A program made the translations under genes and the position numbers. A stretch of 64,000 nucleotides of DNA from Eledone cirrhosa (Eukaryota), in NCBI GenBank assembly GCA_964016885.1, contig OZ024744.1, positions 68,572,001 through 68,636,000 of the forward strand. The letters are read 5' to 3'. Below the pieces are notes generated by a model. It saw nothing but the letters and a program-made list of their open reading frames with translations, was not told the DNA's origin and did no database searches. Shown in pieces: positions 4,921-26,463 of this stretch (position 1 is the first letter of the stretch; every line of letters begins with the position of its first letter).

Positions 4921-5186
4921 AGGAAAAAAGATGAAATCGAAAATGCAACTGGAGTCTCTTTTTTTTTTAAATATATATTTATTTGGTTCCTTTACCGGTT
5001 TCGCAGTTCTTCTGCTTTTCAAAAGTAGAATTGAGATGGAGAGTTTGTGGTGAGAAAAATCACAGACCCTCCATCTCAATTCTACTTTTGAAAAGCAGAA
5101 GAACTGCGAAACCTGTAAAGGAACAAAATAAATATAATTTAAAAAAATGACTCCAGCTGCATTTTCGATTTCAGCTTTTTTCCTTA
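4921..5186. mobile_element. Fold-back mini-element, U3-A8 hammerhead in each arm (minus 4990-5025, plus 5085-5120)
   Basis: Inverted arms ~4921-5050/5064-5186; ctt-TTGAAAA-gcag aagaa ctgc-GAAA-ccgg(cctg)-TA-aag. Confidence 0.7.
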
Positions 5187-5382
5187 TACTTTCACTCGTG
5201 TAGGGCACCTCGGTTATTGTTCATTTCGTAAAACAAAAAAAATTTTAAAAAAAAACCTCACTTTCTAATATTTATATATATATAGTAAAAAAATTGAACG
5301 GGAACAAAACAGAGAGGCAGTACGAACAAAGGTTTATTAGTTTCACGCTCTTGAGAGTGGGGTGGTATATATATAGAGAGAG

Positions 5383-6660
5383 AGGAACGAGTAGGACCCC
5401 GACGGCTGAGCTCAAGCCGTTTCGACGGCTAATTCTAGACTAAATGAACATTTTTATCCTGGTATTTGAATAGCCGAGCTTCTCAAGGGGTAATTCCATA
5501 TATGGTAAAAGTGATTGTCACAAGGATTGGTCAAAAGTTTGTTGTGGAGACATAATAATTCTATGATGGCAATTTGTGGAGGGAAGGGGTAGCTGAACCT
5601 GCCAGTAGTAGAAAGAGGGAGAAGGGGTGGAGGAGACCCATTCATGCGTTGATAGTGCCGACTACAGCTGGGCATGAAGTCAAAGAGGATACTAGGGAGG
5701 GGGAGGGGGAGGAAGTCGAAACAATAAGTAGAACAATATGGGGGTAAATATATAGAAAAATACCGAGTGTTAAAAAGCAATTAAATGTAAAAAAAAAAAT
5801 AAATAAAAATAAACAATTTCTGGTTACTACGACCTTCGTACGAGCTTTTATGTCGCTTGCACTAGAACTTTTCTATCGTGGCGGCACCCTTAGAGATAGT
5901 ATTAGTATTCTTTTTCGGGACGCTGAATTATTATTTCGTATTAGTTTACTTTTTTGCACTGGGTGGTTGCTGGCCTTGTGCCTGGGATAGAAACCTTTAT
6001 TTATTATTTCGTGGTAGTTTCTTTAGTATTTTGGCCGCTCACTTGTTGACCCGTCACCGTAAGATATACTCGGTTTATTACTTATACCTCTTAAAAGGGT
6101 CTCATTATAATTCCGTCCCACCTAGTATACCTTTCTTTAGCCTAGCAGTACCAGTGAGAGATTTGGGTCGTAGTAACCAGAAATTGTTTATTTTTTTTTT
6201 TTTTACATTTAATTGCTTTTTAACACTCGGTATTTTTCAATATATTTACCCCATATTGTTCTACTTATTGTTTCGACTTCTTCCCCCTCCCCCTCCCTAG
6301 TATCTTCTTTGACCTCATGCCCAGCTGTAGTCGGCACTATCAACGCATGAATGGGTCTCCTCCACCCTTCTCCCTCTTTCTCCTACTGGCAGGTTCAGCT
6401 ACCCCTTCCCTCCACAAATTATTATGTCTCAACAACAAACTTTTGACCAATCCTTGTGACAATCACTTTTACCATATATGGAATTACCCCTTGAGAAGCT
6501 CGGCTATTCAAATACCAGGATAAAAATGTTCATTTAGTCTAGAATTAGCTGTCGAAACGGCTTGAACTCAGCCGTCGGGGTCCTACTCGTTCCTATTACC
6601 CACTCTACTACCCTAAGTATTGAGTACTTTGGTGCGTTATGGTCCACCTGGTTCCTTACC
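5383..6660. mobile_element. Penelope-type element with ~440-bp inverted arms, U3-A8 hammerhead in each (minus 5396-5491, plus 6486-6581)
   Basis: 5383-5835 is the reverse complement of ~6165-6595; acccc-TTGAGAA-long stem II-GAAA-cggct..agccg-TC-ggggt. Confidence 0.7.
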
Positions 6661-6719
6661 ACATTTCCTCCGTTATATATATATATATATATATATATAT
6701 ATATATATATATATAAAGA

Positions 6720-6980
6720 AAATTTTCGCTTTACATGGCTGAATACAATAAATGTAATCTGAGTTTTTCGAATATTAATAATAACATTCGATTCGTTGAC
6801 AATTATGCAAACAAGCCTCATTTTTATACCCATGTCTTGCTCTTGTATTGGCATGTAAACAGAACTGCAGACACACACTAGTGTTTCTGGGTATCACCCT
6901 TCATCAGTACAGCTCACTGTTCACCTGCCAAACTGTCAGAGCTAGTGAAAATATATGCTATTTTCTAAAATATACAGTGA
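6720..6980 (-). mobile_element. Hammerhead-bearing repeat (ribozyme 6862-6915); second copy at 53585-53955
   Basis: gagctgta-CTGATGA-a-gggt gat accc-a-GAAA-cactagtg-(TG)2-TC-tgcagttc. Confidence 0.7.
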
Positions 6981-8149
6981 CTGATCGGCCTGATTTGCAT
7001 ATTACCAGACTGGCTGATCATCAGATCTGCATATTAGCAGATCCACTGATCAGCCAGATTTGCATATCAGCAGACTGGCCAGTCAGTTTCCTGTATACGA
7101 GCGATAAATGGCCGGCTTTGCCAAAAAAAAAAAAAATTTCGTTCGCTCGCAGGTGTGTGTGTGTGTGTGTGTGTGTGTGTGTGTGTGTGTGTGTGTGTGT
7201 GTGTGTGTGTGTATGTGTGTAGATGTACGTGTGTATGTGTATGCGTGGATGTAAGTGTGAGAGTCTGGGAGAGAACGAGTGTATGTGATTGTGGGTTTTG
7301 AGCGGAGTGTATGTATCTGTGTGTATATAGTCCCTGTATGGGTGTAGGTGGGTGTGGATGGAAAAGATCGTTGGGGATGAGAGCAGATCGTGTGGAATCC
7401 TGAGGCGGTGTGGTATGGGGTGTAGGTGTATGTGAAGATGTGCACGTGTGTGTGTGTGTGTGTTTGTGTGGTTAAGAGAGGATGATGTGGGTTCGTGTGA
7501 AATGTATAGTTGCCTGTGTGCGGAAATGGTGCAAGTGCCTGTGTGTATCTAAGTCTCTGAATGGATGTCGGTGTGTGTGTATGTGGAAGGTAAAGTTCCG
7601 ATGGTGAAATCGTGTCGATATCCAATTGATAGATTCCTTCTGGTAGGGTCGAAAAAAATGGCGAGGTGGAAGTGGATTGTTATGGGGGCGCGCGCAACAG
7701 GTGTGTGGTCCAGATGGTCAAGTCAAAGGTGTGGGAGGAGCGGGTGGAGAGGGTGAGGATGGCGGGACAATGTGTGAGAGGTGGAGGGGAGGATGTGGAG
7801 CCGGCAGAACAGACTGGTGAGTGAGAGGCAGTAGTATTGCTCTCTGTGTAGGAGGGTGTTAATTTATTCTAGGTTTTATACACAGTATTCAAACTTTGCC
7901 TTTCATTCTTCTTGGTTCGATAATATTAATATTGAGATCGATACTATGGCTCCAACTCCTGGCCTTGTACCGAAATTAAAAACCATACATTAAATATCAA
8001 TACCTAGATAAGGTGAATAAGTAGTAATTAATTGATTCCCGAACATAATTGAGCAAATTAATTAAATTATACTTATAATTTTTTTTATTTCATGATTAAG
8101 TTTGTAAATAAAAATAAGCTGTAATCGACGAAAAGATAAACGTAACTGG

Positions 8150-24640: not shown

Positions 24641-25019
24641 TATAAATATAGTTTCCATTTGTTAATATCGTATATATATATATATACATACATTTCATGA
24701 TTCGCTATGAAAAATGCGAAAAATCATAATACACACAGGAGCTTTTCAACAAGTGTTCCTGCTTCTTATGAGCCTCACATACTAAAGACAGAGAGAGAGA
24801 GAGAGAGAGAGAGAGAGAGATAGAGAGAGAGAGAGAGAGAGAGAGAGAGAGAGAGAGAGAGAGAGAGAGAGAGAGAGAGAGAGAGAGAGAATATAACTAA
24901 TCTCCCAAAGGATGTGGTTCCAACAAAAAGGAAGTGCATAAGGGTTAGCCAGAATTTTATCCCCTATTATCTGACATAATGTATTATGTGCCTTCCCTCA
25001 TTGCTATGATTTGTATATA

Positions 25020-25736
25020 TTGGTCTGTCCCAGTCATTCATTGAGCAACATCGGTGAAGTTGGCACCCTTAACTCGCAGTTGGGTGCGGATGCATTCATG
25101 TATATATGTGTGTGTCCGCATGTATCTGTGTGTTTCTAAATATATTAATAACTCCCTCTGGTCGAGCAATCTTTGAAGTGTGGGGACAACTGGAAAGCTT
25201 CCATTACTCGTACTTCTCGCCTTCTTCACTACCTCTTCTACGGCCTCGATATGAATACCCCCTCCGCCTCCGTGGTATTTTCTTCGTGGTTATAAGAGGC
25301 TTAGCTCTGTTTCTCGACCGTTATATCGCGTGACTATCTCCCCCTCCGCCTTTTGGGATTCTTTCTCACGTCGTGTAGACGCGTTCTTGAGACTAGTAAA
25401 ATGAGGTATCCTCTTGATAAGTTGGCAGACCTCGCAAGGACTCTATATCTTTGATATATTGTTTTTGTTTATGCCACGAAACTACGTAGTCGAGGAATTT
25501 AGGAGCAGTTTAGGTATGATACATTTTATTACTAATTATATCTAAATGTTTCTTCTCTCTTCATAATGTATTTTTAACTCTGATACTGGTTCAGTCTGGT
25601 TCAAACTGAATTGGTCTGTCCCAGTCATTCATTGAGCAACATCGGTGAAGTTGGCACCCTTAACTCGCAGTTGGGTGCGGATGCATTCATGTATATATGT
25701 GTGTGTCCGCATGTATCTGTGTGTTTCTAAATATAT
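25020..25736 (+). mobile_element. ORF-less 591-bp unit with ~125-bp terminal direct repeat and a U3-A8 hammerhead (25409-25496)
   Basis: 25021-25145 equals 25612-25736; tcctc-TTGATAA-g tggca..tgcca c-GAAA-ctacgtag-TC-gagga. Confidence 0.78.
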
Positions 25737-26015
25737 ATATATACATATATATATATATATATATATATATATATATATATATATATATATATATATATAT
25801 ATATATATATATATATATAATATATATATATATATATATATATGATATATATATATATAGATATATATATCATTTGCCTCCATCATTGGAATCATGGATC
25901 AACTAAGCACTCTTGCTATATTAACACATTTTGATCTGCTTAACTTCAAGAACTATGCCTGTAAATAACATTATTTTTTCTTTCACATTGACTTTTTATG
26001 CTCTACATTACGCCC

Positions 26016-26337
26016 GTTTTTTTTCTTTTTTCGTTTTTCTTTTTTCTTTTTTCTTTTTTCTTTTTTCTTTTTTCTTTTTTCTTTTTTCTTTTTTCTTTTT
26101 TCTCTTTCCTTTTTTCTTTTTTCTTTTTTCTTTTTTCTTTTTTCTTTTTTCTTTTTTATTTTTTATTTTTTATTTTTTCTTTTTTCTTTTTTCTTTTTTC
26201 TTTTTTCTTTTTTCTTTTTTCTTTTATCTTTTTTCTTTTTTCTTTTTTCTTTTTTCTTTTTTCTTTTTTCTTTTTTCTTTTTTCTTTTTTCTTTTTTCTT
26301 TTTTCTTTTTTCTTTTTTCTTTTTTCTTTTTTCTTTT
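26016..26337. repeat. (TTTTTTC)n polypyrimidine tandem repeat
   Basis: Direct reading. Confidence 0.95.
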
Positions 26338-26421
26338 CACTTCATAAACCTTGTTTGTAAATAACATTATTCTTTCTGCACCTTCTCTTTAACATGTGCG
26401 ACACCACACTAATACATTTCA

Positions 26422-26463
26422 CTATCATTTGATAATGCATAAAAATGCTGAAACCGGTAATAG
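26422..26463 (+). ncRNA. Hammerhead-like motif, U3-A8 core, weak stem I
   Basis: ctat cat-TTGATAA-t gcat aaaa atgc t-GAAA-ccgg-TA-atag. Confidence 0.55.

What the first reader, a model, noticed from the sequence alone, without database searches (positions are those of the whole stretch)
4990..26463. Four unrelated families with a compensatory U3-A8 catalytic core (UUGANAA)
Seen: TTGAAAA (4990/5085), TTGAGAA (5396/6486), TTGATAA (25414) and TTGATAA (26429), each at the core position between stems I and II with normal GAAA and GUH. Known: C3 and G8 form a tertiary Watson-Crick pair in the active hammerhead, and U3-A8 variants can retain activity. Inference: the double change recurring in different families is covariation, not decay.
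Basis: partly seen in the sequence, partly recalled or inferred. Interest (0 to 1): 0.75.

Follow-up and report, generated by a model that had tools for sequence, protein, structure and literature searches.

The report
Known hammerhead variant in Penelope retroelements
The four motifs have the shape of self-cutting hammerhead RNAs and belong to high-copy jumping-gene families; they carry a base-pair swap already reported in other organisms that likely keeps them able to cut, but two families are close relatives and a third spread mostly with that pair broken.

Summary
The motifs are real. All four have a UUGANAA core, GAAA, a GUH site and three stems: 11 such folds in the window, 0 in 50 shuffles. 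U3-A8 is a published natural variant, also in Penelope-like elements (PMC3088659, PMC4209133).

"Four unrelated families" is wrong. A (5088) and D (26429) are sister RT/GIY-YIG Penelope-like elements, 60% identical in RT, so there are three lineages at most. B (6491) has Hydra-clade motifs. C (25414) is a 591-bp non-coding tandem retrozyme.

Across families the covariation holds: 12 clusters C3-G8, 9 U3-A8, 1 mixed, 1 other; a 590-kb sample gave 15 U3-A8, 13 C3-G8 and no mismatch. Within B it fails: 921 of 1278 copies matching one pattern are C3·A8, a form that multiplied although its U3-A8 relatives are likely ancestral. This fits published in vitro data that cleavage is not needed for insertion. 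Cleavage was not tested here.

This scan noted both the C3·A8 Hydra subfamily and C3-G8/U3-A8 covariation before, on other DNA. Verdict: new members of a known kind, modest interest.

The parts
4917..5284 (.). Family A insertion: short inverted pair of Penelope-like terminal repeats with a tail on the right arm, beside (TA)n
4984..5034 (-). Family A hammerhead, U3-A8 core 5022-5016, palindromic stem III (ACCGGT), predicted cut after 4993
5076..5127 (+). Family A hammerhead, U3-A8 core 5088-5094; stem III palindrome broken in this copy; predicted cut after 5117
5383..6673 (.). Family B insertion: 5'-truncated inverted pair of a Hydra-type Penelope-like element, no ORF remnant examined, ends in (TA)n
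5390..5497 (-). Family B hammerhead, U3-A8 core 5486-5480, long stem II, stem III with palindromic loop GAGCTC, predicted cut after 5401
6480..6587 (+). Family B hammerhead, U3-A8 core 6491-6497; one change in the loop III palindrome; predicted cut after 6576
22231..22580 (.).
25019..25736 (+). Family C insertion: 1.2 units of a 591-bp non-coding tandem repeat (retrozyme type), ending in (TA)n
25409..25496 (+). Family C hammerhead, U3-A8 core 25414-25420, long stem II, palindromic stem III, predicted cut after 25491
25871..26658 (+). Family D insertion: 5'-truncated 3' end of a Penelope-like element with an expanded T-rich run, ending in (TA)n
26420..26466 (+). Family D hammerhead, U3-A8 core 26429-26435, U10.1·U11.1, palindromic stem III (ACCGGT), predicted cut after 26459

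Best explanation
The motifs are type I hammerhead folds in high-copy retroelement families (two sister Penelope-like families, one with Hydra-clade motifs, and one tandem retrozyme), and their U3-A8 core is the published swap that likely keeps self-cleavage. Shown: the fold, the family context and the between-family covariation. Inferred: U3-A8 replaces the C3-G8 Watson-Crick pair; it was fixed in a master element once per lineage and then inherited by thousands of copies; the palindromic stem III would let two motifs on a tandem transcript pair and cut as a dimer. Inferred: cutting is useful to these elements over the long run (stems and core persist across diverged families) but is not needed for each insertion. 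That would explain why copies read through the cut site and why a C3·A8 sublineage of family B, predicted to cut poorly, still reached about 900 copies. Family C most likely uses cleavage to release 591-nt units that would circularise and be copied by a Penelope-type enzyme.
For: Fold above chance: 11 against 0 in 50 shuffles. Family-wide U3-A8: A 99 of the first 100 of 5289, C 100 of 100 of 756, D 97 of 100 of 494. A looser pattern for the CCGG-loop group gave 2438 matches against 25 control, 95 of the first 100 U3-A8, with different stem II sequences. RT and GIY-YIG ORF pieces lie between inverted motif pairs of A and D; B has RWR, DKT and CxCX5C motifs. Clusters: 12 C3-G8, 9 U3-A8, 1 mixed, 1 U3·C8 singleton. 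In B's wider group N7 is G, A or U while U3-A8 stays. Natural U3-A8 and U10.1·U11.1 are published, and the swap is described as active in vitro (PMC3088659); about 1,300 U3-A8 motifs in Schistosoma PLEs, dimer model (PMC4209133). In an anole PLE, C3 or G8 mutants abolish cleavage but not insertion in vitro (PMC11167929). Family C runs end about 80 or about 245 bases past the cut site, 0 of 25 at it.
Against: No cleavage data for any of these RNAs. Family B multiplied mostly as C3·A8 (921 of 1278), which shows that copy number does not prove a working core, and that argument applies to A, C and D too. Copies of one family are not independent, so the support rests on 5 or 6 U3-A8 lineages grouped by eye. 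Stem I is weak in A (3 direct pairs) and D (2). Published minimal PLE hammerheads cut only weakly even as dimers. No autonomous partner was identified for C.
Confidence: 0.78

Rival explanations
1. The U3-A8 cores are inherited remnants with little or no cleavage; the fold is kept for another job, such as binding by the retroelement protein, and the core drifts.
For: A C3·A8 lineage amplified to 921 copies. 22,102 exact matches to B's stem III exist against 1278 matches to the core pattern, and most of the non-core copies inspected are cut off inside loop II. Insertion does not need cleavage in vitro.
Against: 21 of 23 clusters keep a Watson-Crick 3-8 pair while N7 and the stems vary. Free drift would give mismatched families often; only B has one.
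Confidence: 0.12
2. C3·A8 in family B is itself active, either as a C·A wobble or by a register shift in which C3 pairs with G7, so B does not break the pairing rule in function.
For: The sequence CUGAGAA can be read with G7 as partner. The C3·A8 copies keep the stems, GAAA and GUC, and the lineage was successful.
Against: Published Hydra hammerheads align in the normal register (supplement of PMC8557442). G7 was fixed in my counting pattern and the form comes from one lineage, so C3 with G7 is not independent support. Other single changes at 3 or 8 abolish cleavage in a PLE hammerhead. That the C3·A8 mismatch strongly impairs cleavage is recalled, not read here.
Confidence: 0.07
3. One reading: four independent compensatory double changes, with mismatches absent.
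For: B, C and the A/D group differ in stems, and the A and B proteins are distant (22% identity).
Against: A and D are sisters within one U3-A8 group. B is mostly C3·A8 under the tested pattern.
Confidence: 0.03

Closest known systems
Minimal type I hammerheads of Penelope-like elements, including the U3-A8 variant of Schistosoma mansoni Cercyon elements (Cervera and de la Pena 2014, PMC4209133)
   Same: Location in terminal repeats of RT/GIY-YIG elements, short palindromic stem III, opposite-strand pairs, mostly truncated copies, U3-A8 core.
   Different: Here U3-A8 is about half of the sampled motifs and spans several lineages. B, C and E have long stem II arms. A lacks the extra base between positions 9 and 10.1.
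Natural hammerhead core variants (Perreault et al. 2011, PMC3088659)
   Same: U3-A8 covariation and the U10.1·U11.1 mismatch (family D) are both described there.
   Different: The section read does not describe a natural C3·A8 family.
Hydra clade of Penelope-like elements (Craig et al. 2021, PMC8557442)
   Same: Family B has RWR, DKT, a CxCX5C linker, CxxC and CxH in the endonuclease, and (TA)n targets.
   Different: All Hydra hammerheads listed in supplementary File S2 have C3-G8. B has U3-A8 or C3·A8 and its motif differs from Hydra-1_oBim.
Non-LTR retrozymes (Cervera and de la Pena 2020, PMC7229834; Li et al. 2026, bioRxiv 10.64898/2026.07.22.740005)
   Same: Family C is a non-coding tandem repeat with one type I hammerhead per unit, 42% GC, and a strongly self-paired unit.
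   Different: The unit is 591 bp, above the 150-450 bp described. It has a U3-A8 core, inverted 5' parts and two fixed 3' ends like a Penelope tail.

Membership tests
Type I hammerhead ribozyme | Core N3-UGA-N-N8-A, GAAA and NUH joined by stems I, II and III, with a Watson-Crick 3-8 pair | tested here: met
   for all six window motifs; not met for the C3·A8 copies of B elsewhere
Type I hammerhead ribozyme | Self-cleavage after N17 | not testable with these tools
   Needs a bench assay
Penelope-like element hammerhead (dimer type) | Palindromic stem or loop III | tested here: met
   A and D ACCGGT, B loop GAGCTC, C ACTACGTAGT; single window copies of A and B carry one change
Penelope-like element, C-terminal endonuclease (A and D) | RT followed by GIY-YIG upstream of the motif | tested here: met
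   Pfam RVT_1 E 1.4e-6 (just under the cut-off) and 9.5e-9; GIY-YIG E 4.7e-7 and 4.6e-5; ORFs are broken in the copies seen
Neptune or Nematis clade (A and D) | CX2-5CxxC linker and placement in an RT tree | tested here: inconclusive
   Linker seen; no tree with reference elements was built
Hydra clade (B) | RWK-like motif, DKT, CxCX5C linker, CxxC and CxH in the endonuclease, (TA)n targets | tested here: met
   Read by eye in ORF pieces of L151-L158 against section 11 of PMC8557442; RWR in place of RWK; Pfam found nothing in 5 of 5 B pieces
Hydra clade (B) | Grouping with Hydra elements in an RT tree | not tested
   No reference proteins were fetched
Non-LTR retrozyme (C) | Tandem units each with a type I hammerhead, non-coding, GC under 45%, self-paired | tested here: met
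   591-bp spacing; no ORF of 130 codons or more in L180 and L181; GC 0.42, circular fold z -6.0 against 40 shuffles
Non-LTR retrozyme (C) | Unit of about 150-450 bp (a described range, not a strict limit) | tested here: not met
   591 bp against PMC7229834
Non-LTR retrozyme (C) | Expression as circular RNA | not testable with these tools
   Needs stranded RNA reads or a northern blot

The most novel reading that the evidence does not exclude
One Hydra-type master lineage lost the essential 3-8 pair (U3-A8 to C3·A8), kept transposing to about 900 copies, and later regained U3-A8. That would be a genome-scale natural record that hammerhead cleavage is dispensable for Penelope-type insertion in vivo yet favoured over time, with matched natural alleles ready to assay.
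Probability: 0.3. Interest if true: 0.55.

Novelty: new member of a known kind. Interest (0 to 1): 0.3.

Why it matters
The U3-A8 core is known, so the finding as written adds new examples only. Two by-products have some value. First, U3-A8 made up 15 of 28 motifs in a 590-kb sample, so searches with the canonical CUGANGA core would miss about half of the type I hammerheads here, including a young retrozyme estimated at tens of thousands of units. Second, family B supplies natural U3-A8, C3·A8 and U3·G8 alleles in one background, which makes the open question of whether Penelope-like elements need their ribozyme directly testable.

Tried and rejected
Rfam scan: no hammerhead among the 150 of 263 listed matches, which were mostly microsatellite-driven miRNA hits. 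Single-strand folding did not separate the motifs from shuffles, as expected for dimer-type motifs. I first took family B for a Naiad element from recalled motifs and dropped that: its endonuclease is C-terminal and its motifs match Hydra. Pfam gave nothing for B proteins. A first tree suggested that a U3·G8 clade was the ancestral intermediate; more copies showed that this clade also holds U3-A8 copies and that U3·G8 is scattered, so I rejected it. The order of events in B is unresolved: the AU test did not reject a single C3·A8 clade (p 0.085), and divergence did not date C3·A8 against U3-A8 (p 0.23; p 0.14). Expression: no RNA holder listed; the four runs laid are contigs of unrecorded kind, so they say nothing on cleavage or circles. 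Five papers were not held: Lunse 2017, Przybilski and Hammann 2007, Nelson and Uhlenbeck 2008, Martick and Scott 2006, Hammann 2012. They may hold data on C3·A8 or further U3-A8 examples.
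Full report
Observation. The window lies in a 3.0-Gb repeat-rich genome. Each has GAAA, a GUH site and three stems. The heptamer alone is near background (69 against 57 in one shuffle). A structure descriptor with positions 3, 7 and 8 left free found 11 motifs in the window, 7 U3-A8 and 4 C3-G8, and none in 50 shuffles (a stricter earlier version gave 10 against 0 in 30). The descriptor was adjusted after I had seen the motifs.

Families A and D. A has 5289 pattern matches and D has 494; these are lower bounds for exact patterns. Inverted motif pairs 3-4 kb apart enclose broken RT and GIY-YIG frames in 3 of 6 A loci and 3 of 3 D loci fetched (Pfam). Their RTs are 161 of 269 residues identical, and both motifs end in GAAACCGGTA. 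A looser pattern for this group, which excluded N7 = A, gave 2438 matches against 25 in the control; the first 100 listed were 95 U3-A8, 3 C3·A8, 2 U3·G8 and 0 C3-G8, with several different stem II sequences. A and D therefore most likely inherited one U3-A8 change.

Family B. Frames beside B motifs show RWR, DKT, a CxCX5C linker and a C-terminal endonuclease, the marks of the Hydra clade (PMC8557442). The B protein is only 22% identical to A's. The Hydra label rests on motifs read by eye; Pfam found nothing and no tree with reference elements was built.

Family C. It is a 591-bp tandem repeat with 99-100% identical copies, often with an inverted part. It has no long frame in two arrays, 42% GC and a strongly self-paired unit (z -6.0). 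The 756 count covers one subfamily. Nine motifs in the 590-kb sample suggest roughly 45,000 units in all, a rough figure from four stretches. Runs of units end in (TA)n about 80 or about 245 bases past the predicted cut, 23 of 25 at these two sites and none at the cut. This resembles the two-site tail described for a Penelope-like element (PMC11167929).

The covariation test, between families. All fetched DNA gave 380 hits in 23 clusters: 12 C3-G8, 9 U3-A8, 1 mixed (B) and 1 U3·C8 singleton. With B counted as a mismatch and the singleton left out, Fisher p is 2e-5; after collapsing related clusters by eye to 14 lineages it is 0.003. The 59 stretches chosen by position (590 kb, two of them next to the window) gave 15 U3-A8, 13 C3-G8 and no mismatch, with 0 hits in 10 shuffles. 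The descriptor missed some diverged B relatives in that sample. Within A, C and D the first 100 listed copies were 99, 100 and 97 U3-A8. In four public runs no other letter reached 3% at C's positions 3 or 8.

The covariation test, inside B. Of 1278 copies matching the core pattern, 921 are C3·A8; the first 100 listed were 68 C3·A8, 30 U3-A8 and 2 A3·A8. Only 13 copies have G8: 11 U3·G8 and 2 C3-G8. The pattern leaves out diverged U3-A8 subfamilies, so the share in the wider group is lower; C was 44% and 7% of the depth at that position in two runs. C3·A8 copies carry linked diagnostic changes and sit beside RT frames, so this form was copied from a master element and is not copy-by-copy decay. 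An exact stem III pattern has 22,102 matches, and most non-core copies inspected are truncated inside loop II.

Order of events in B. A tree of 69 of 108 copies (those with about 350 bases or more of upstream homology, plus four outgroup copies; core columns masked) was rooted on an older U3-A8 sister group. It gave a ladder with C3·A8 copies at the base and a U3-A8 group nested inside, support 100/97. That reads as loss and regain. A single C3·A8 clade was not rejected (AU p 0.085), the outgroup is long-branched and short, and divergence does not date the two forms apart. Either way U3-A8 is likely ancestral and C3·A8 derived.

Mechanism. Shown: fold, context and covariation. From the literature: C3 and G8 pair in the active core (PMC3884650); U3-A8 occurs in nature and is described as active in vitro (PMC3088659); Penelope-type minimal hammerheads cut weakly as dimers through a palindromic stem III (PMC4209133); C3 or G8 mutants abolish cleavage but not insertion in vitro (PMC11167929). 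Inferred: U3-A8 keeps cleavage; the pair is under long-term selection; single insertions use uncut or re-ligated RNA, which lets a C3·A8 lineage multiply. That C3·A8 cuts poorly is recalled and extrapolated, not read here.

Novelty. Natural U3-A8 was reported in 2011 and in Penelope-like elements in 2014, so the headline is known. I found no natural C3·A8 family in print in searches, and no report of these octopus-linked terms with retrozymes beyond two unrelated hits in one search, but five key papers were not held. Earlier notes of this scan describe the C3·A8 Hydra subfamily (e1-10308940) and C3-G8/U3-A8 covariation (e1-9517786, e1-9529720) on other DNA; I had counted C3·A8 before reading them.

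Papers seen. PMC4209133: parts 1-2 of 4. PMC3088659: section 8 and passages. PMC8557442: passages, section 11, one search and part 2 of 59 of the supplement. PMC11167929, PMC7229834, PMC3884650, PMC6765202: passages. bioRxiv 10.64898/2026.07.22.740005: part 1 of 5; its supplements are closed and may list U3-A8 retrozymes.

Verdict. Real motifs, a known variant, three lineages at most, covariation true between families and broken within one. New members of a known kind; interest 0.3.

Noticed in passing
window 4585 (+), 55760 (-), 56055 (+), 60448 (-): Four canonical C3-G8 type I hammerhead motifs from two other repeat families; 55760 and 56055 form an inverted pair. A related core at 60990 (-) did not pass the descriptor.
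   Followed up: partly
window 22231-22580: Fifth U3-A8 family (E) with a very long stem II; fold-back copy whose plus arm lacks the core.
   Followed up: partly
L274-L303; genome-wide pattern: 22,102 exact matches to family B's stem III. Many are tiny fold-back pairs truncated 15-25 bases upstream of GAAA; one arm ends about 19 bases after the cut site and the other runs on with a tail.
   Followed up: partly
runs X3 and X6 laid on window 25340-25580: Family C appears as one contig of 620-621 letters (591 plus 30), and in X3 it closes on itself. A tandem array gives the same picture and the kind of run is not on record.
   Followed up: no
L193:994 (+), L062:380 (+), L251:2057 (+): Further U3-A8 motifs with other stems; L251 belongs to the CCGG-loop group.
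   Followed up: no
window 9235-10693 and 12577-13123: Tandem and inverted copies of a 170-215-bp SINE-like repeat.
   Followed up: no
window 14546-14978, 22911-23451, 31012-31265, 33354-36992: Other long inverted repeats around (TA)n, possibly more fold-back retroelement ends; none passed the type I descriptor.
   Followed up: no
window 58375-59289: 314-bp tandem repeat, 2.9 copies, 97% alike; no type I hammerhead found by the descriptor.
   Followed up: no
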